In this document: piece after piece, positions 2,513 through 8,039 of the stretch
How positions within the stretch are numbered: position 1 is the stretch's first letter
How the letters are laid out: every line of letters begins with the position of its first letter
Virus record (IMG/VR): IMGVR_UViG_2698536443_000014
Coordinates: 1-9,119 of that record
DNA from: a virus
Taxonomy: Duplodnaviria > Heunggongvirae > Uroviricota > Caudoviricetes
DNA: 9,119 nucleotides
Direction: 5' to 3' (one strand)
The notes under the pieces: generated by a model
Databases searched by the model: none
The model's input: the letters and a program-made list of their open reading frames with translations, nothing else
What the model was told of the DNA's origin: nothing
Program-made: the position numbers and the translations under genes

Positions 2513-3322
2513 TCAATGAACGGTATCGAGCAGCTTTAACAGCTCAGGAAATCGGGATTCGAAGAAATGCGGCTGCGTCTCGCGCGGATTTGCAGGACTG
2601 GTGATGTTCTTGCCGAACATGCAGCCTTTCGCGGTCAGCGACCAGAATTTTTTGATGTTGTTAATCGCGGTACGGCTGTATCGTTCGCGTTGTTCAACGA
2701 TCCCCAGCTTCACCATCTGGTGATATGCCTGATTAGCCGTCAGGCGGATACCATACTGCTTCAGCAGTGCACTCAGTGACAGCGTGGGGCGGCTTGAGCC
2801 ATCAGGCGCGTCAGCAGGAGCATCAATGGCATAGCGCGGTGCCAGATTCGGTAAGCCAACAGCCTCCTGGAGTTTCTGACAGGCCCCAAGCACTGAAGAG
2901 TTAGACAGGTTTAACTCCCTGCGCATAAAGTCCAGCAGAATCACTCCAGCCTGCATCTTGTCAGCAGCCTGCCCGGATAATTTTTCCGGTGCGCTGGTTA
3001 CCATATCGAAAGTACGGATCACCTTCAGATGGAATGACGGGCTGATCCACATTGCATAGGCATACACCAGTTCTTTGCAGACATACGTCCCCTGGTTATT
3101 TCCGCCATTAATGACGCTAACTGGTTGATTTTGTTCCAGAGGCGGAATTCCACCCTCGGTGAAAAGTTGTTCAATCAATTCACAGGTTTGCTTATTGGAG
3201 AGCCAGTATTTCGGGCGTTTTTTTTGTTCTCCCCCGGCTGCCCTGTGCAGATCGTTCAGGCTGTAACGCCCATAAGCATCACGACGAACTTCAATACCAT
3301 CAATGACCATCAGATTATTCAT
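2513..3322 (-). CDS. KilA-N domain protein (antirepressor/Bro-like family)
   Basis: N-terminus (VIDGIEVRRDAYGRYSLNDLHRAAGG...RPKYWLSNKQTCELIEQL...GTYVCKELVYAYAMWISPSFHLKVI) matches the KilA-N DNA-binding domain signature. Strong Shine-Dalgarno (AAGAGGAGAAA) upstream of ATG 3322. Stop TGA at 2515..2513. Confidence 0.8.
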   Translation of the reverse strand: MNNLMVIDGIEVRRDAYGRYSLNDLHRAAGGEQKKRPKYWLSNKQTCELIEQLFTEGGIPPLEQNQPVSVINGGNNQGTYVCKELVYAYAMWISPSFHLKVIRTFDMVTSAPEKLSGQAADKMQAGVILLDFMRRELNLSNSSVLGACQKLQEAVGLPNLAPRYAIDAPADAPDGSSRPTLSLSALLKQYGIRLTANQAYHQMVKLGIVEQRERYSRTAINNIKKFWSLTAKGCMFGKNITSPANPRETQPHFFESRFPELLKLLDTVH

Positions 3323-3341
3323 ACTTCGTTTCTCCTCTTAA

Positions 3342-3731
3342 TCAGGCGGCTGCACCCGCCGTTTTCTCGTACTTACTGATAGTGATCTCGACCTTCCCTC
3401 CCGGGATAACCGATCCCCACTCAACCAGCATTCTTTTCACCTGACTGTCGTCTTCCCACACACCCGCGTGGGTCAGGGCGTCAAACAGCGCCTTGTTATA
3501 GTTGTCCAGATCGCGGATCCGGTTATCCGGAGGAAACAACACGATCTCCACTGAAGCAGGTGCCGACGTTGGTTTCGGCAGACGACGTAACTGCTCAATG
3601 ATGGCGGCACACGCCGCGCTCTGGAATTTTCGTCCCGCCGTGCTTATCAGGCTCTTACCAGCAAACGCCCCTTTGTTGGGGTGTCGCCAGTACGTGTTCA
3701 CGCTGGGCGGAAACGGCAGAATCAGCTTCAT
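3342..3731 (-). CDS. rusA: Holliday junction resolvase RusA (crossover junction endodeoxyribonuclease)
   Basis: 129-aa protein (MKLILPFPPSVNTYWRH...DNRIRDLDNYNKALFDALTHAGVWEDDSQV...) carries the RusA family signature, including the catalytic-region D-x-D-N motif. Start ATG 3731 overlaps the upstream stop (ATGA). Confidence 0.85.
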   Translation of the reverse strand: MKLILPFPPSVNTYWRHPNKGAFAGKSLISTAGRKFQSAACAAIIEQLRRLPKPTSAPASVEIVLFPPDNRIRDLDNYNKALFDALTHAGVWEDDSQVKRMLVEWGSVIPGGKVEITISKYEKTAGAAA

Positions 3732-4054
3732 ACTTTCAGGCCCCTCTCATGTAACCAGTGGGCTGCACGCAGCCTGGCGTTTTCCTCACCGGCAAGCAGT
3801 GAGCGGATAATCCCGACCGCCTCGCTGTCGTCGTCCTTCACCGCGGTATGAAGCGTGATGCCCCGGGCCACGCCACGCTTTATCGTGATGACGCCTTTTT
3901 TCTCCAGTGCGCGAAGATGCTCCACTGCTGCATTCACTGAACGGTATCCCAGCATGGTTGCCACCTCCTGATTGGTTGGCGGAAAGCCACGCTCTTTCTG
4001 GTAAGAAATCAGCATATCCAGCACCTGCTGCTGGCATTGAGTTAACGTCGTCAT
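3728..4054 (-). CDS. LexA N-terminal DNA-binding-domain-like protein lacking the S24 peptidase domain
   Basis: MTTLTQCQQQVLDMLISYQKERGFPPTNQEVATMLGYRSVNAAVEHLRALEKKGVITI resembles the LexA winged-helix DNA-binding domain (MKALTARQQEVF...[36 protein letters not shown]). The ORF is only 108 aa, so there is no autoprotease domain. ATGA overlaps at both ends. Confidence 0.65.
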   Translation of the reverse strand: MTTLTQCQQQVLDMLISYQKERGFPPTNQEVATMLGYRSVNAAVEHLRALEKKGVITIKRGVARGITLHTAVKDDDSEAVGIIRSLLAGEENARLRAAHWLHERGLKV

Positions 4055-4704
4055 GCCGCCATCTCCCTGACAAGTTTTTCTGCCTGCTGGCGAACCTGCG
4101 CCAGAAAGGCCTCACCACATGCCTCAAGTTCATCGCGCCCGATGTAGCTGATTGCCGGTCCCTTCCAGGTCTTGTCGAAAACAGCAATAGCACCAGCGAA
4201 GAACGCTCCTGTCGGCACCTGCTTCTCGTCTTTCGGGATAAACCAGACAGGCAGTTCAAAACCAATACGCCCGCGAATAAAAGCAATATGATCTGCATCT
4301 TCCGGCCACCACACTTCGCTGGTGGCAGCTTTGATCAGGAAAACATAGCGCCCGCCTTTATCACGCATGGCACTGGCATGCTTCATGATGTAACGCATGC
4401 CGGTGATGTATTGCCCCTCATGCTGACTGGCGCGGCTGTATGGGGGATTTCCAAAGGCAGCACCTTTAAGCTCCGCAAGACGTTCTGACCAGTCATGCGC
4501 CAGCGCGTTGTCTTCCGCCGTGTAATACGCGGCGCATTTGGCGTTATCACCGTCAGTAAACAGATCCAGAACAAACGGGCCAAACAGGGTGTTAATTCCC
4601 CAGAAAATGTTGTCCGGTGTGCGCCACTGATCGCCCACTTCCTTCAGTTCATGGGCTGGTTTGTTTCGCAGTTCCACCAGCGCCCGGCAATATTTATTAC
4701 TCAT
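4051..4704 (-). CDS. Phage N6-adenine DNA methyltransferase (Dam-like, NPPY motif)
   Basis: Contains the FGNPPY catalytic motif and upstream DLFTD-type motif typical of phage Dam-family methyltransferases. Start taken at ATG 4704..4702 (MSNKYCR...), which forms a TAATG overlap with the upstream stop; the track's 4737 start is a GTG extension. Confidence 0.8.
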   Translation of the reverse strand: MSNKYCRALVELRNKPAHELKEVGDQWRTPDNIFWGINTLFGPFVLDLFTDGDNAKCAAYYTAEDNALAHDWSERLAELKGAAFGNPPYSRASQHEGQYITGMRYIMKHASAMRDKGGRYVFLIKAATSEVWWPEDADHIAFIRGRIGFELPVWFIPKDEKQVPTGAFFAGAIAVFDKTWKGPAISYIGRDELEACGEAFLAQVRQQAEKLVREMAA

Positions 4705-5192
4705 TAAGCCCCCACGTAATTCCCTGACAGATACCACTCTTCACCTGATGCAGCGCGCTTGCTGCTTTTCCGTAAGCACCGCTCACGACGTGCCAGAAAA
4801 TTGTTTCGTTCTGGCTGGGAGTGGCTTTCACGGAATGCCGCCATCCACACGGTTGCAGCACGACGAAATAAGCCCCTGGACTCCAGTTCTTCCGCCTGGC
4901 GGGCCAGGCACAAAATCACCCGCGGGTCGTTAGTGCCGACATAGAAATTGCGCACAGGTCTGGTTTCACGAACTGGTTGCCGTTCCGCCTCCGGCGATAT
5001 CTTTGTCTGGCGCGGGAAATGTCTGCGTGCATCCCCTTCACAACGGTGAGCCACACGCCCACTCTGACGTAACTTGCTTGCTGACTGCAGAACGCGCTGC
5101 CGTGAGTAACCTGTAAAAGCATCCGCAATGTCTCCGGAAGTACACCCCGGATGGGCTTCAATGAATTTCTGAACGTCATTCAAAAGACTCAT
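4704..5192 (-). CDS. Hypothetical protein with C-terminal PerC/ANR-like motif
   Basis: 162 aa from ATG 5192 (Shine-Dalgarno AGGGGG; the track's GTG at 5198 is 2 codons upstream). The C-terminal segment LARQAEELESRGLFRRAATVWMAAFRE...RRERC resembles, from memory, the conserved core of PerC/ANR-family small regulators. The N-terminal half is unassigned. Confidence 0.5.
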   Translation of the reverse strand: MSLLNDVQKFIEAHPGCTSGDIADAFTGYSRQRVLQSASKLRQSGRVAHRCEGDARRHFPRQTKISPEAERQPVRETRPVRNFYVGTNDPRVILCLARQAEELESRGLFRRAATVWMAAFRESHSQPERNNFLARRERCLRKSSKRAASGEEWYLSGNYVGA

Positions 5193-5194
5193 GC

Positions 5195-6136
5195 TCACCC
5201 CCTGAATCCTGCCGGGATCTGGCTGTAGTCCACGTTGTCGTAACTGGCTTTGAAGTACGGGTCCTCGCGTTTTTCGGTGTACGTGCTGACGGACGGCGAT
5301 AAGCGCAGGGAAAGCTCATCCCATTTTTCCCGCAGCTTCGACGGGCTGAGCACGTTACGGCACCAGAACGGATCGCGACTGACGCGGCTGTACATCTCGC
5401 AGATTTGTTTATGAGTATGACCATCCTGCACACACATCAGGCGAATTTCGTTTGCCCAGGCTGTCCAGTTCGGTTCTTTGGGACGAACCACCTCGCCGTC
5501 ACATTCGGCAGCCTGCTCGTACAGGGCAATGATTTTTTTCCAGAGCCACTGTGCGCAGGTCAAATCATCCTGCGTCCCCCACTGGCGCTTTTTAGGGCTG
5601 AATACAACCGCATCAGGATGGCGAGTTAAAAAATCCTGTTCATCCGTCTGCGTGTCCGGTTGCGAAGCGTCCGGACGAGAAGGTTTTTTATCTGACGGAT
5701 CATGTTTTGATTTTACTGACGGATCCCCGCCAGATTCTGACGGGTGAAAACCCGCTTTTTTACCAGATTTCGACGCATCAAATTTTGACGGGTCAGATTT
5801 TGATGCGTCAGATTTTGACGGGTCAGAATCTGACAGTTGAGAAAATGCCGCTGCCTGAAGCTTCGCAACGTTAAGCTGATAAACATTCGACGCATTGCGG
5901 TTACCCTGGCGACGCGCCTTACGCGTTAACCAGCCTTCTGCTTCCAGCCGTGCGATAGCCGTTCTGACGGTACTCATCCCCGCGCCAATCTGGCGGGCAA
6001 TGGTTTCAATTGATGGCCAGCACACACCTTCGTCATTACTGAAATCAGCCAGGCGGGCCATAATTGCCACGCTGGATAACTTCATGCCTGACGCAGCGCA
6101 ACCATCCCATACATAGCCGGTTAATTTAGTGCTCAT
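5195..6136 (-). CDS. Phage replication initiation protein (N-terminal HTH domain, repeat-rich linker, DnaT-like C-terminal region)
   Basis: The N-terminus (LSSVAIMARLADFSNDEGVCWPSIETIARQIGAGMSTVRTAIARLEAEGWL) is a winged-HTH typical of prophage replication initiators. The central linker is encoded by tandem repeats. The C-terminal region resembles the DnaT-like domain of prophage replication proteins, called from memory. It occupies the O-gene position after cro/cII. Confidence 0.7.
   Translation of the reverse strand: MSTKLTGYVWDGCAASGMKLSSVAIMARLADFSNDEGVCWPSIETIARQIGAGMSTVRTAIARLEAEGWLTRKARRQGNRNASNVYQLNVAKLQAAAFSQLSDSDPSKSDASKSDPSKFDASKSGKKAGFHPSESGGDPSVKSKHDPSDKKPSRPDASQPDTQTDEQDFLTRHPDAVVFSPKKRQWGTQDDLTCAQWLWKKIIALYEQAAECDGEVVRPKEPNWTAWANEIRLMCVQDGHTHKQICEMYSRVSRDPFWCRNVLSPSKLREKWDELSLRLSPSVSTYTEKREDPYFKASYDNVDYSQIPAGFRG
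5690..5836. repeat. Iteron-like direct repeats (candidate replication origin) inside the initiator gene
   Basis: About five tandem copies of a 14-15-bp unit (TCAGATTTTGACGGG, TCAGATTTTGATGCG, TCAAATTTTGACGGG, CCAGATTTCGACGCA, TCAGAATCTGACAG) between about 5762 and 5836, plus degenerate copies with the TCTGACGG core at 5691, 5715 and 5735. In the protein frame they encode S-D-x-S-K repeats. Confidence 0.5.
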
Positions 6137-6145
6137 GACCGACCT

Positions 6146-6484
6146 CTATTTCCCTGAATTTACGACGAAACTGTTCGAGCGGACTGAAGCATTCATGCTC
6201 ATAACCTTCGCGGAGGTAGATAACCCGTTGTGTTTCCGGCTCCCAACGAATGACTCTGACGGGCACTCCGTAGTGATCTTTGAACCAGCGGTTAACTTGT
6301 CGCAAAGGACTGTCTCCTTCTGCCGGTTGAAATCACCCACAGCCCACTCTGCAAAGCTGTGGGTTACAATTTCCCTGTCACCTGGTACATTCACTGCATA
6401 GCAATATTCCACCTTCGCTTTTCCACCCGGAACAGGAAGCGCAATCAGTTGCGAGCGACGGTAGTGTGTTGTTAAACTGTTCAT
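6146..6484 (-). CDS. Hypothetical protein (C-terminal half doubtful; possible frameshift or overlapping gene)
   Basis: Start ATG 6484 overlaps the stop of the upstream CII-like gene (ATGA), which supports a real gene start. The N-terminal ~50 aa look protein-like, but the C-terminal half is Ser/Thr-rich and low-complexity, while an alternative frame over 6126..6305 looks far more protein-like (see findings). Confidence 0.4.
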
Positions 6485-7065
6485 GCGTTAGTTTCTCCAC
6501 AACCAGAAGCAATCGACGCCACGACGCCCGGAGCTGCACACTCGCGGGCGTTACTCTTTTCCGGCGCACAAAAAACACGAAATAACAGTGTTAAATGCTC
6601 CTGCCACTTCGCCATTACTTGGTAGCTGTTCTCTTCGATTTGCTCACGCTCAGCCTGGTCAATAACTCCATCAGCAGTTGCCTTGCGTAAGTACTGGGAA
6701 TGCTTGCCAATCCATTCTATTGACTCCATCAGCCGCTGATTAATGTCACCATTGTCAATGTCATCAATGACCACCAGCGGCACAAACACCCCATTACTAC
6801 GACGGGCTATTGCATCTGTTACATGCCTGGTACCACTGGCATCCTGTAAAACCATGGCCCACTCAAGTGGAAAAATTTGATCCCCACCGCTACGCAGTCT
6901 GTTATGCAATTGATCTTTTGCTGGGGTGATATCATCAGATTTATACAAACCAAGAATTTCTGCTGCTTCCTCATAGCCATGAGGTAAATCAGCAATCGTT
7001 CTTCGTATTGCTGCCACCAGCCATGCTGGTTGTTTATCAACTTTCCATTCAGGTTCTTTACCCAC
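6481..7065 (-). CDS. CII-like early regulatory protein (CP76/YdaT-type position and size), putative
   Basis: 194-aa ORF immediately downstream of Cro, GTG start at 7065 preceded by TGAGGA at about 6-nt spacing. The position is that of lambda cII or of the YdaT/CP76-type CII equivalents of E. coli cryptic prophages. The family call is by context and memory only. Confidence 0.45.
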
Positions 7066-7092: not shown

Positions 7093-7290
7093 TTATGCCG
7101 CAGCACTGTTAGTCTTTTGATATAAAGACACGTCAACTTTCAGTTTCCCGTTAGTAATTTTTTCTAACTGGTACGCTCGGCCTTCAGGAATAATCTCAGG
7201 CCACTCTGAAACAGACGGATGCTTAATACCTAGGGCTTCGGCGGTTTTACAAACTCCGCCGAAATAATTAATCACGTCGGATTTCCGCAT
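7093..7290 (-). CDS. cro: Cro-like repressor (P22 Cro type)
   Basis: MRKSDVINYFGGVCKTAEALGIKHPSVSEWPEIIPEGRAYQLEKITNGKLKVDVSLYQ aligns along its length with P22 Cro as I recall it (MYKKDVIDHFGTQRAVAKALGISDAAVSQWKEVIPEKDAYRLEIVTAGALKYQ). It is divergent from the repressor gene across the operator region, with Shine-Dalgarno GGGAGA. Confidence 0.8.
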   Translation of the reverse strand: MRKSDVINYFGGVCKTAEALGIKHPSVSEWPEIIPEGRAYQLEKITNGKLKVDVSLYQKTNSAAA

Positions 7291-7321: not shown

Positions 7322-7387
7322 AATGTAGGATATCCAACATGCTAATGTCAAGAATCCTACATGGGCATGTGGTAGGATTGCCTACAT
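7322..7387. promoter_or_regulatory. Right operator region (OR) with pR-like promoter (minus strand) overlapping the presumptive pRM
   Basis: 18-bp near-palindrome ATGTAGGATATCCAACAT at 7323..7340. Further half-site copies ATCCTACAT at 7354..7362 and GTAGGATTGCCTACAT at 7372..7387. On the minus strand: -35 TTGACA (complement of 7346..7351), 17-bp spacer, -10 CTACAT/TACATT (complement of about 7322..7328), directed toward cro. Confidence 0.6.
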
Positions 7388-8039
7388 GATGAACATGAGT
7401 GATCGTATTCGCCAAAGGCGAAAAGAACTGAACCTGACACAACAAGCACTGGCTGATTTGACTGGTGTGAACCGTGTCACGGTTACTGGATGGGAAAAGG
7501 ACGACTACCAACCAAATGGAGCCAACCTTCAAGCCCTAGCCAACGCACTTAAATGCGATCCTCTGTGGCTTGTTAGCGGAAAAGGCTCGCCTGAACCAAA
7601 GATAAATCTAAAACCTGAAATATTCGCAGTTAAAAAAGTCCCCCTAATCTCGTGGGTTCAGGCGGGTTCATGGACAATGACGGAGCCTGGTGTCAGGAAA
7701 GAAGATGCTGAAGAGTGGGTTTATACTACCGCCCTTGTATCAGAAATGGCATTTGCACTACGGGTCCGTGGTGATTCAATGACCAATCCCCTCGGCTCAC
7801 CATCGATACCAGAAGGTTCTATCGTTATCGTAGAGCCAGATATTATTGATACAGAGTGTATTAACGGAAAAATCGTTGTTGCCCATATCAATGGTGGGCA
7901 AGAAGCGACACTCAAAAAATTTGTTGAGGACTGGCCGAACAGGTATCTCGTCCCACTAAATCCTAACTATAAAACTATTGAATGCGGTGAGAACTGTAGA
8001 ATAGTTGGTCTTGTCAAACAAGTAATAATGGATTTTTGA
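7386..8039 (+). CDS. cI: CI-like prophage repressor (HTH-XRE N-terminal domain, S24 LexA-like peptidase C-terminal domain)
   Basis: N-terminal HTH (IRQRRKELNLTQQALADLTGVNRVTVTGWE). C-terminal S24 autopeptidase signature with GDSM serine motif and a downstream lysine (LRVRGDSMTNPL...EATLKKF). Starts at the edge of the operator region, consistent with a short-leader pRM transcript. Confidence 0.85.
   Translation: MMNMSDRIRQRRKELNLTQQALADLTGVNRVTVTGWEKDDYQPNGANLQALANALKCDPLWLVSGKGSPEPKINLKPEIFAVKKVPLISWVQAGSWTMTEPGVRKEDAEEWVYTTALVSEMAFALRVRGDSMTNPLGSPSIPEGSIVIVEPDIIDTECINGKIVVAHINGGQEATLKKFVEDWPNRYLVPLNPNYKTIECGENCRIVGLVKQVIMDF

What the first reader, a model, noticed from the sequence alone, without database searches (positions are those of the whole stretch)
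5690..5836. Iteron-like tandem repeats (candidate origin) embedded in the replication initiator gene and encoding an S-D-x-S-K repeat linker
About five good and three degenerate copies of a 14-15-bp unit lie inside the 5195..6136 CDS between the N-terminal HTH domain and the C-terminal domain. This mirrors lambda, where the origin iterons lie within the O gene linker. The same DNA encodes a low-complexity S-D-P/A-S-K repeat, so one sequence is under both DNA-level and protein-level constraint. Copy number here could vary between related prophages and set replicon specificity.
Basis: partly seen in the sequence, partly recalled or inferred. Interest (0 to 1): 0.5.

Follow-up and report, generated by a model that had tools for sequence, protein, structure and literature searches.

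The report
Phage replication origin inside initiator gene
The repeats are real and are most likely the binding sites that form the replication origin of a very common lambda-like prophage; this layout has been textbook knowledge for phage lambda since about 1980, but this version has not been described as an origin in the papers I could search.

Summary
Window 5691-5842 holds eight copies of a 14-bp imperfect palindrome, TYTGAY-NN-RTCARA. Five abut at a 15-bp period (5769-5842). Three more lie 33, 21 and 24 bp further on. All sit in codons 99-149 of a 313-aa O-like initiator gene (5195-6136, minus strand). They lie between an HTH_36 winged-helix domain and a C-terminal domain homologous to that of lambda O.

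Comparison of 78 distinct relatives across Enterobacterales shows selection on the DNA rather than on the protein. In the array, amino-acid identity is lower than in the N-domain, yet synonymous codons are kept far more often (84% against 43%). The motif is about 650-fold enriched in this linker. In phiP27-type relatives the same 14-mer occurs in two reading frames. The array always travels with its N-domain, across at least three C-domain types, and copy number changes in 15-bp steps.

The best reading is a lambda-type origin iteron array. This is a new member of a known kind, not shown by experiment. One unexpected link emerged. A truncated copy in E. coli K-12 (CPS-53 yfdO) is the strongest published in vitro target of the host regulator SrsR.

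The parts
5195..6136 (-). O-like replication initiator gene (313 aa); it contains the whole array
   Evidence: ORF. phrog_391 'replication initiation O-like', E 2.8e-135. 98-99% identical to the genes annotated as O or primosomal protein in phages SfII, SfIV and Kati.
5843..6136 (-). N-terminal winged-helix DNA-binding domain (aa 1-98; Pfam HTH_36 match at aa 23-70)
   Evidence: Pfam HTH_36 E 4.3e-11, with weaker GntR, MarR and DnaD_N matches. A single-sequence AlphaFold model gives helices plus a beta hairpin at 70-88, but at low confidence.
5769..5842 (.). Proximal iteron group: five abutting 14-bp palindromes at a 15-bp period (5829-5842, 5814-5827, 5799-5812, 5784-5797, 5769-5782). This is the part whose copy number varies. 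It equals the four SrsR boxes footprinted in the K-12 copy.
   Evidence: Copy-number variation. SrsR footprint: PMC9181523, with the K-12 sequence.
5736..5749 (.). Iteron 6 (gene strand TTTCACCCGTCAGA), 33 bp from iteron 5
   Evidence: Lies in the block that is conserved at synonymous sites across 71 relatives.
5715..5728 (.). Iteron 7 (GGGGATCCGTCAGT; degenerate left half), 21 bp from iteron 6
   Evidence: Nearly invariant, third codon positions included, in 71 relatives.
5691..5704 (.). Iteron 8 (CATGATCCGTCAGA), 24 bp from iteron 7
5677..5716 (.). Least stable 40-bp stretch of the O gene (70% A+T, A-rich on the sense strand). It overlaps iteron 8 and the 7-8 spacer. Candidate unwinding region, but weak.
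   Evidence: Nearest-neighbour stability scan. In relatives, the 45 nt after site 7 average 61% A+T against 48% for the whole gene.
5306..5641 (-). C-terminal domain homologous to the C-terminal domain of lambda O (aa 166-277)
   Evidence: tblastn gives 38% identity to lambda O over aa 166-277. BLASTP E 4e-25; window aa 182-277 align to lambda O aa 185-270.
5198..5224 (-). Extreme C-terminal tail SQIPAGFRG, 8 of 9 residues identical to the C-terminal tail of host DnaT
   Evidence: The tail is kept in most family members whatever the C-domain type.

Best explanation
The segment 5691-5842 is the iteron array of the replication origin of an SfII/SfIV/CPS-53-type lambdoid prophage. It is embedded in the linker codons of the phage's own O-like initiator gene.

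Proposed mechanism:
1. The initiator's N-terminal winged-helix (HTH_36) domain binds, probably as dimers, to the eight 14-bp palindromes TYTGAY-NN-RTCARA.
2. The resulting nucleoprotein complex (like the lambda O-some) distorts the DNA and opens the neighbouring A-rich, least stable stretch at the gene-distal end (about 5677-5716).
3. The lambda-O-like C-domain and a DnaT-like C-terminal tail bring in the host DnaB helicase, most likely through host DnaC. This phage type carries no P, DnaC or DnaB gene.
4. As in lambda, the origin lies in the pR transcript, so transcription passes through it.

Shown here: the array and its symmetry, selection on the DNA itself, its fixed coupling to the N-domain type, and its lambda-like position.

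Inferred: that the initiator binds these sites, that the fragment acts as an origin, where the DNA opens, and how the helicase is recruited.
For: 1. The array is real and clustered.

2. Each unit has dyad symmetry. In a matrix of 390 family sites, position 1 T pairs with 14 A, 3 T with 12 A, 4 G with 11 C, and 5 A with 10 T.

3. The DNA itself is under selection.
- Across 76 relatives compared with the window, the N-domain has 82% amino-acid identity but the same codon for the same residue in only 43% of cases. The array has 70% amino-acid identity but 84% same-codon. The rest of the gene has 33% and 47%.
- Serine codons in the linker are TCA plus TCT in 85% of cases, against 26% elsewhere in the same genes. 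AGY codons are 5% against 45%. Lys AAA is 93% against 64%.
- Third codon positions in the block TTTGACCCGTCAGAATCTGGnGGGGATCCGTCAGTA carry about 1.8-2 bits. At conserved residues of the N-domain they average 0.65 bits.
- The base just after the 14-mer, which is not part of the matrix, is never G: AAA 260 against AAG 0, and GAA 118 against GAG 0.

4. The amino acids tolerated at each position share bases, not chemistry: K/E/D/N are all RAW codons, and S/F/T/P/I/Y are mostly NYT.

5. The same DNA motif occurs in different reading frames. TTTGACCCTTCAGA encodes FDPSD and, 32 bp later, (V/R)LTLQN in phiP27 and Stx2_KH16-043. The distinct iterons of mEp460_4F5 and of a Vibrio phage also occur in two frames.

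6. Matrix hits run at 26.4 per kb in the linkers against 0.04 per kb in the rest of the 3.3-kb loci.

7. The array stays with the N-domain.
- The same N-domain plus array is joined to at least three C-domain types.
- mEp460_4F5 has a 97%-identical C-domain but a different N-domain, and four different repeats at the same place.
- More distant HTH_36 relatives have altered motifs: phiP27 TCTGAACCTTCARA, Kp4866-6 TTTGAnnnnTCAAA, and 24B GGGGCAGGAGCTGCCC x3.

8. The geometry matches lambda. Lambda's annotated iterons lie at gene nt 349-433; these lie at nt 295-446. The C-domain is homologous to that of lambda O.

9. Isolated phages carry this module (SfII, SfIV, Kati, PhiR29 and others), so it does support replication.
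Against: - No binding or origin assay exists for this initiator type in the literature I could search.
- There is no strong AT-rich unwinding element. The best 40-mer is 70% A+T and ranks only 431st of 9080 positions in the window.
- No helicase-loader gene lies beside the initiator, so the lambda mechanism cannot be copied step by step.
- The 15-bp spacing puts neighbouring sites on nearly opposite faces of the helix, unlike lambda's spacing of about two turns.
- The only protein experimentally shown to bind this sequence is a host LysR regulator, SrsR, on the K-12 copy.
- Within the close family, nearly all sites are in one frame (452 of 454). The frame argument therefore rests on a few more distant relatives.
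Confidence: 0.8

Rival explanations
1. The array is a binding-site cluster for the host LysR-type regulator SrsR (YgfI). On this view it works as a transcriptional control region for the genes downstream (the PerC-like gene, dam and others) and not as an origin.
For: In E. coli K-12 the truncated copy of this gene (CPS-53 yfdO) keeps the array almost unchanged. Kobayashi et al. 2022 (PMC9181523) found the 'yfdO/yfdP spacer' to be the highest SrsR peak in genomic SELEX. They reported several gel-shift complexes and a 66-bp DNase I footprint holding four TCAGATTTTGa boxes. These boxes are iterons 1-5 read in the other register. They also reported SrsR-dependent yfdONMLK mRNA levels.
Against: - The three distal sites (5691-5749) lack SrsR boxes, yet they are the part most conserved at synonymous sites across genera from Escherichia to Providencia.
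- The motif changes together with the phage N-domain type, which a host factor would not explain.
- In intact phages the array is inside a coding region. It looks intergenic in K-12 only because the gene is truncated and annotated from an internal TTG.
- No sigma-70-like promoter was found in 5400-6200.
- SrsR binding and initiator binding are not mutually exclusive.
Confidence: 0.1
2. The array is only a low-complexity, slippage-prone protein linker (S-D-x-S-K repeats) with no function at the DNA level. On this view the similarity between copies comes from recent duplication.
For: The region encodes a serine-, aspartate- and lysine-rich stretch with no predicted secondary structure (aa 102-165), although the model is of low confidence. 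Copy number changes in exact 15-bp (5-aa) steps among near-identical Klebsiella phages, as slippage would produce. Nearly all sites are in one frame.
Against: - Synonymous codons are kept across genera whose synonymous sites are saturated elsewhere in the same gene: 84% against 43% same-codon, with lower amino-acid identity in the array.
- K, E, D and N interchange at one position, and S, F, T, P, I and Y at another. This makes sense for bases, not for residues.
- The units are palindromes.
- The identical 14-mer occurs in two frames in phiP27-type genes.
Confidence: 0.04
3. The sites do bind the initiator, but they serve copy-number control, autoregulation or incompatibility (titration or handcuffing). 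The place where replication actually starts lies elsewhere in the phage.
For: The unwinding element next to the array is weak. Plasmid iteron systems use extra iterons for control (general knowledge of iteron plasmids). In Stx phages only four of the six iterons are bound strongly (PMC7466680).
Against: - No other cluster of the motif exists in the window or in 3.3-kb flanks of 78 relatives (0.04 hits per kb outside the linker).
- The position is the same as the proven origin in lambda.
- By the cited literature the same layout is reported for P22 and proposed for phage L.
Confidence: 0.05

Closest known systems
Phage lambda origin (ori-lambda) inside gene O
   Same: Multiple initiator-binding repeats with dyad symmetry lie in the middle of the initiator gene, between the DNA-binding N-domain and the C-domain, followed in the gene direction by an A-rich stretch. 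They lie in the pR transcript. The C-domain is homologous (38% identity over aa 166-277). The position in the gene is nearly the same: nt 349-433 in lambda against 295-446 here.
   Different: The N-domain is HTH_36 and does not match Pfam Phage_rep_O. There are eight 14-bp sites, five of them abutting at 15 bp, instead of four sites of about 18 bp at 20-24 bp. The AT-rich region is far weaker. No P gene follows.
Stx phages 933W and P27: six iterons in gene O
   Same: Extra iterons lengthen the encoded O protein (13 more residues), so iteron number and protein length change together (PMC7466680). Here, 15-bp steps add 5 residues each.
   Different: Those are lambda-type O proteins with lambda-type iterons, and their binding and plasmid replication have been tested. 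This type is untested.
P22 gene 18 and phage L gene 18 origins
   Same: Distantly related initiators each carry their own repeats inside the coding region. P22 has four repeats of about 20 bp. Phage L has six imprecise 11-bp repeats, proposed as its origin from sequence alone (bioRxiv 10.1101/2020.10.05.325894).
   Different: The repeat sequences differ, and those phages encode a DnaB-type helicase (gene 12) next to the initiator.
SrsR (YgfI) box array at yfdO/yfdP in E. coli K-12 CPS-53
   Same: It is the same DNA. The K-12 relic differs from the window's array by a few bases. The four published boxes TCAaATTTTGa, TCAGATTTTGa (twice) and TCAGAgTcTGa correspond to window 5779-5838.
   Different: It was published as an intergenic regulatory site for a host regulator. 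Its origin as the linker of a truncated phage initiator gene was not noted in the sections I read.
Iteron plasmids (RepA, RepE, pi, TrfA type)
   Same: A winged-helix initiator binds repeated sites to open a nearby AT-rich region (PMC4980987, abstract, and general knowledge).
   Different: Plasmid iterons are direct repeats of about 17-22 bp, usually in helical phase and outside the rep gene. Here the sites are palindromes inside the gene.

Membership tests
Lambdoid origin embedded in the initiator (O) gene | Cluster of at least four similar repeats in the central part of the initiator coding region | tested here: met
   Eight sites in codons 99-149 of a 313-codon gene.
Lambdoid origin embedded in the initiator (O) gene | Each repeat has internal dyad symmetry (dimer binding site) | tested here: met
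   TYTGAY-NN-RTCARA; the matrix from 390 sites is symmetric.
Lambdoid origin embedded in the initiator (O) gene | Repeat sequence is specific to the type of N-terminal DNA-binding domain, not to the C-domain | tested here: met
   The same N-domain plus array occurs with three C-domain types. The same C-domain with another N-domain carries other repeats.
Lambdoid origin embedded in the initiator (O) gene | Conservation at the DNA level beyond what the protein requires | tested here: met
   Same-codon rate 84% in the array against 43% in the N-domain. The motif occurs in two frames in relatives.
Lambdoid origin embedded in the initiator (O) gene | AT-rich unwinding region directly after the repeats | tested here: inconclusive
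   The least stable 40-mer of the gene is at the distal end (5677-5716), but it is only 70% A+T and overlaps site 8. The lambda stretch is clearly richer.
Lambdoid origin embedded in the initiator (O) gene | The initiator binds the repeats, and the fragment gives initiator-dependent replication | not testable with these tools
   No experiment found for this type.
Lambda O/P replication module | N-terminal domain of the Phage_rep_O family | tested here: not met
   Pfam finds HTH_36 and no Phage_rep_O match at E <= 0.01. BLASTP against lambda O shows real similarity only from about aa 180 onward.
Lambda O/P replication module | C-terminal domain homologous to that of lambda O | tested here: met
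   38% identity over aa 166-277; E 4e-25.
Lambda O/P replication module | A P-type (or DnaC/DnaB-type) helicase-loading gene directly downstream | tested here: not met
   The next genes are a PerC/MarR-like gene, dam, a LexA-DBD gene and rusA. Klebsiella, Citrobacter and E. coli relatives have a methylase or PAPS reductase next.
SrsR (YgfI) binding-site array | Several TCAGATTTTGC-like boxes | tested here: met
   The window plus strand 5779-5838 reads TCAAATTTTGA, TCAGATTTTGA, TCAGATTTTGA and TCAGAATCTGA. Binding was shown only for the K-12 copy.
Iteron plasmid origin | Direct, non-palindromic repeats outside the rep gene | tested here: not met
   The sites are palindromes inside the gene.

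The most novel reading that the evidence does not exclude
The array is a dual-use site. It would be both the origin iterons of a prophage type present in about 39% of complete E. coli genomes and the highest-affinity genomic target of the host stationary-phase regulator SrsR (YgfI).

SrsR would then act on phage replication or induction, either as host control of the origin or as a phage sensor of host state. The published top site of the SrsR regulon would be a fossil origin.

A second element is that the initiator's DnaT-like C-terminal tail lets these phages load host DnaB without any phage-encoded loader.
Probability: 0.2. Interest if true: 0.6.

Novelty: new member of a known kind. Interest (0 to 1): 0.4.

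Why it matters
- **How common it is.** A match to this N-domain-plus-array segment occurs in 2107 of 5426 complete E. coli genomes (at least 80% of it in 1576), in serotype-converting Shigella phages, and in prophages across Enterobacterales. Naming its origin therefore gives a usable annotation for many genomes. It also gives a handle for building or curing such replicons.
- **A clean example of dual coding.** The protein sequence in the array drifts while the synonymous bases are held fixed.
- **A published result reinterpreted.** The strongest in vitro target of the E. coli regulator SrsR is the leftover linker of a truncated phage initiator gene, not an ordinary intergenic promoter region.
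- **An open question raised.** These phages have a lambda-type O C-domain but no P-like partner, so how they recruit the helicase is unknown.

Tried and rejected
- **AT-rich element on the 5836-5900 side.** That side is 45-52% A+T in 60-bp windows, and the stability scan puts the minimum at 5677-5716 instead.
- **A ninth site at 5886-5895.** TTCGACGCAT is an exact copy of part of site 5. It lies in the conserved GNRNASNVY codons of the N-domain, where the third positions vary among relatives. I treat it as chance.
- **Structure prediction.** The single-sequence model has mean pLDDT 45.7. Only its secondary-structure outline is usable, so no fold search was run.
- **Rfam.** No RNA family matches in the window.
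- **Promoter scan of 5400-6200.** None found.
- **Antisense terminator-like hairpin at 5741-5754.** It is absent from the Klebsiella homologue, so I do not count it as part of the element.
- **Literature search for the motif as text.** It returned only unrelated primer sequences.
- **Searches for an origin statement for SfII, SfIV or SfV.** The SfIV genome paper lists a replication module but names no origin. SfV orf39 is a different gene that shares only the last 76 bp.
- **Compensatory change between positions 6 and 9 of the palindrome.** In phiP27-type sites it looked suggestive by eye (TCTGAA-CC-TTCARA), but the sites are mixed, so I make no claim.
- **The plus-strand and alternative-frame ORFs across the array** (5707-5874 plus strand, 5713-5895 minus strand). 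These are by-products of the repeat.
Full report
**1. Setting**

The window is the immunity and replication region of a lambdoid prophage. On the plus strand lies a cI-type repressor (7386-8039). On the minus strand lie:
- a P22-Cro-type gene (7093-7290)
- a CII-like gene (6481-7065)
- a DUF4222 gene (6126-6305)
- a 313-aa gene (5195-6136)
- a PerC/MarR-like gene (4704-5198)
- dam (4051-4737)
- further genes that the SfII record annotates as a LexA DNA-binding-domain protein, RusA and a KilA-N protein

The 313-aa gene is 98-99% identical to the genes annotated as replication protein O or primosomal protein in Shigella phages SfII and SfIV and E. coli phages Kati, PhiR29 and others. It matches phrog_391, 'replication initiation O-like', at E 2.8e-135.

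Its domains are as follows.
- Residues 23-70 match Pfam HTH_36.
- Residues 166-277 are 38% identical to the C-terminal domain of lambda O (BLASTP E 4e-25).
- A single-sequence structure model is of low confidence (mean pLDDT 45.7). Its outline is a winged helix up to about residue 100, no secondary structure from 102 to 165, then helices.

**2. The observation**

Tandem Repeats Finder reports 5764-5827 with period 15 (4.3 copies, 81% matches). It also reports period 30 (2.1 copies, 88% matches). The repeat finder extends the family to 5693-5838 and shows many inverted-repeat pairs.

The unit on the gene strand is TCTGACnnGTCAAAA. This is a 14-bp imperfect palindrome, TYTGAY-NN-RTCARA, plus one base.

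The degenerate pattern with up to two mismatches occurs 12 times in the window, against 4.3 +/- 2.1 in shuffles (none of 200 reaches 12). Seven of the 12 lie in 5691-5842.

Reading the gene strand gives eight sites:
- Five abut at 15 bp: 5829-5842, 5814-5827, 5799-5812, 5784-5797 and 5769-5782.
- Three follow at 33, 21 and 24 bp: 5736-5749, 5715-5728 and 5691-5704.

All eight are in one frame. They encode SQLSD, SDPSK, SDASK, SDPSK, FDASK, FHPSE, then the DPSV and DPSD cores of sites 7 and 8. The array ends about 6 bp beyond the stated coordinate.

**3. Is the constraint on the DNA or on the protein?**

I collected relatives of the N-domain from phage records and from one genome per species. 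This gave 79 genes with 78 distinct linkers, from Escherichia, Klebsiella and Citrobacter out to Yersinia, Pantoea, Proteus and Providencia.

Four results point to the DNA.

*Codon use.*
- Serine codons in the linker are 51% TCA and 34% TCT. In the rest of the same genes they are 16% and 10%.
- AGC plus AGT fall from 45% to 5%.
- Lys AAA rises from 64% to 93%.

*Third codon positions.*
- At conserved residues of the N-domain they are close to saturated: 0.65 bits on average, and about 0.1-0.4 bits at four-fold sites.
- In the block TTTGACCCGTCAGAATCTGGnGGGGATCCGTCAGTA they are almost invariant across 71 genes.

*Pairwise against the window.*

| Segment | Amino-acid identity | Same codon for same residue |
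|---|---|---|
| N-domain (aa 1-98) | 82% | 43% |
| Array (aa 99-150) | 70% | 84% |
| Rest (aa 151-313) | 33% | 47% |

The array shows less protein conservation but more synonymous conservation, the reverse of what a protein-level constraint gives. It is also not what recent transfer of the segment would give.

*Residues tolerated at each codon slot share bases rather than chemistry.*
- Slot 5 is K 260, E 118, D 37 and N 34, all RAW codons. AAG and GAG never occur, although that third base is outside the search matrix.
- Slot 1 is S, F, T, P, I or Y, and its codons are mostly NYT (TCT 266, TTT 111, ACT 16, CCT 13 of 452).

**4. The same motif in other frames**

In phiP27 and Stx2_KH16-043 the N-domain is about 60-64% identical. 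There the identical 14-mer TTTGACCCTTCAGA occurs twice, 32 bp apart. One copy encodes FDPSD and the other (V/R)LTLQN.

Two other initiators show the same thing with their own repeats: mEp460_4F5 (ATCRGGTCAAARYG, four copies) and a Vibrio phage (GGTCAAAWT, three copies). Both have copies in two frames.

Within the close family, 452 of 454 sites share one frame. This argument therefore rests on the more distant members.

**5. Location and coupling**

A matrix built from 390 family sites finds 26.4 hits per kb in the linkers and 0.04 per kb in the remaining roughly 3 kb of each locus, on both strands. There are 3 to 10 sites per gene, with spacings of 15 bp (297 cases), 33 bp (64) and 45 bp (12).

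The N-domain and the array stay together, while the C-terminal part is exchanged. I saw three C-terminal types:
- a lambda-O-like C-domain
- an 'ITDQA...GSRYQ' type
- a phiP27 type, which is followed by DnaC and a helicase

Conversely, mEp460_4F5 has a C-domain 97% identical to the window's but an unrelated N-domain, with different repeats at the same place.

More distant HTH_36 initiators have altered palindromes:
- TCTGAACCTTCARA in phiP27
- TTTGAnnnnTCAAA in Klebsiella phage Kp4866-6
- GGGGCAGGAGCTGCCC, three copies, in Stx phage 24B

Adjacent DNA is of course linked. Even so, the recombination joints fall after the array rather than before it. That is what a binding domain and its own sites would require.

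**6. Copy number**

Near-identical Klebsiella and E. coli phage genes carry four, five, six and seven tandem units, differing in exact 15-bp steps (KpF5 < phage 1 LV-2017 < ST101-KPC2phi6.3 < vB_EcoS-733R5).

In a spread sample of E. coli genomes, one of 30 full-length matches is 15 bp shorter. I found nothing to suggest that number rather than sequence sets specificity.

The parallel in Stx phages is documented. Six iterons instead of four add 13 residues to the O protein (PMC7466680).

**7. Comparison with lambda**

In the lambda record the four annotated iterons lie at nt 349-433 of gene O, followed by an A-rich stretch. Here the sites lie at nt 295-446.

The least stable 40-bp stretch of the gene is 5677-5716 (70% A+T, A-rich on the sense strand). 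It sits at the gene-distal end of the array, on the same side as in lambda. It ranks only 431st of 9080 positions in the window, and it overlaps site 8. In relatives, the 45 nt after site 7 average 61% A+T against 48% for the whole gene.

I therefore rate the unwinding element as inconclusive.

The general rule that lambdoid initiator genes each carry their own repeats is stated for lambda, P22 and phage L in the phage L genome paper. The kind of element is thus well known.

**8. An unexpected link to published work**

A match to the N-domain-plus-array segment occurs in 2107 of 5426 complete E. coli genomes; 1576 carry at least 80% of it.

In K-12 the match begins at nt 234 of the gene. It lies in the CPS-53 (KpLE1) cryptic prophage, next to yfdP, and is annotated as a pseudogene missing its N-terminus. 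It is followed by yfdN (PerC family) and yfdM (methylase fragment). This is yfdO. The array there differs from the window's by a few bases.

Kobayashi et al. 2022 (PMC9181523) reported the following:
- The 'yfdO/yfdP spacer' is the highest genomic-SELEX peak of the LysR-type regulator SrsR (YgfI).
- It forms several gel-shift complexes.
- DNase I footprinting shows a 66-bp protected region with four boxes: TCAaATTTTGa, TCAGATTTTGa (twice) and TCAGAgTcTGa.

These boxes are iterons 1-5 read in the other register (GTCA-N5-TGAC). The Results passages and the Discussion that I read treat the site as a promoter region and do not mention its phage-origin nature.

This gives a real rival, or an additional function. 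I rank it below initiator binding for two reasons:
- The three distal sites lack SrsR boxes, yet they are the best conserved part.
- The motif changes with the phage N-domain type.

**9. How the helicase might be recruited (inference)**

No P, DnaC or DnaB-type gene follows the initiator. This holds in the window, in SfII, and in the Klebsiella, Citrobacter and E. coli relatives.

The last nine residues of the protein, SQIPAGFRG, match the last nine of E. coli DnaT, SQIPPGFRG, at 8 of 9 positions. A ...P-x-G-F-R-[GST] tail is kept in most family members whatever the C-domain type. It is absent in the phiP27 type, which has its own DnaC and helicase.

A DnaT C-terminal motif in HTH_36 O-like proteins has been noted before, for the DopC protein (PMC5509034). 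DnaT acts in loading DnaB-DnaC during replication restart (PMC13220808). The tail may therefore be how these phages do without a loader. This is a lead, not a result.

**10. Verdict**

The repeats are real, and the DNA itself is under selection. They are best explained as the iteron array of a lambda-type origin embedded in its initiator gene (confidence about 0.8).

What is known: the kind of element. Not described as an origin in the literature I could search: this particular iteron family, despite being very widespread. Not shown: initiator binding, origin activity, the point of unwinding, and helicase recruitment.

Noticed in passing
window 5198-5224 (aa 305-313 of the O-like protein): The extreme C-terminus SQIPAGFRG matches the extreme C-terminus of E. 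coli DnaT (SQIPPGFRG) at 8 of 9 residues. A P-x-G-F-R-[GST] tail is kept in most relatives whatever their C-domain type. It is missing in phiP27-type genes, which are followed by DnaC and a helicase.
   Followed up: partly
window 2513-5198; also L001, L002, L005-L009: No P, DnaC or DnaB-like helicase or loader gene lies next to the initiator in this phage type. The downstream genes are a PerC/MarR-like gene, dam, a LexA-DBD gene, rusA and a KilA-N gene. Yet the initiator has a lambda-O-like C-domain, which in lambda binds P.
   Followed up: partly
L097 3502-4209 (E. coli K-12 CPS-53, yfdO): K-12 carries a copy of this gene truncated at nt 234 that keeps the whole array. Published work (PMC9181523) identifies this array as the top in vitro binding site of the host regulator SrsR (YgfI) and treats it as an intergenic promoter region.
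   Followed up: partly
window 5741-5754 (+ strand): A terminator-like hairpin, CGGGTGAAAACCCG followed by TTTTTT, lies antisense to the O gene in the gap between the two groups of sites. It is not present in the Klebsiella homologue.
   Followed up: partly
window 6126-6484 (- strand): Two overlapping same-strand ORFs in different frames both have family support: 6126-6305 (DUF4222, E 8.6e-19) and 6146-6484 (phrog_1170, E 7.6e-70). A 63-residue family covers only the first half of the longer ORF. SfII annotates the longer one and RefSeq annotates the DUF4222 one.
   Followed up: no
L016 nt 295-355 of gene O (Stx phage 24B); L015: A more distant HTH_36-type O gene carries three copies of a different palindrome, GGGGCAGGAGCTGCCC, encoding GAGAA repeats at the same linker position. 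A Salmonella relative (SI8) has one copy.
   Followed up: partly
window 4704-5198: The gene after O (K-12 yfdN homologue) combines a MarR-like N-terminal match with a PerC/ANR-like C-terminal match. Its start overlaps the O stop codon. It is absent from the Klebsiella relatives that have the same O type.
   Followed up: no
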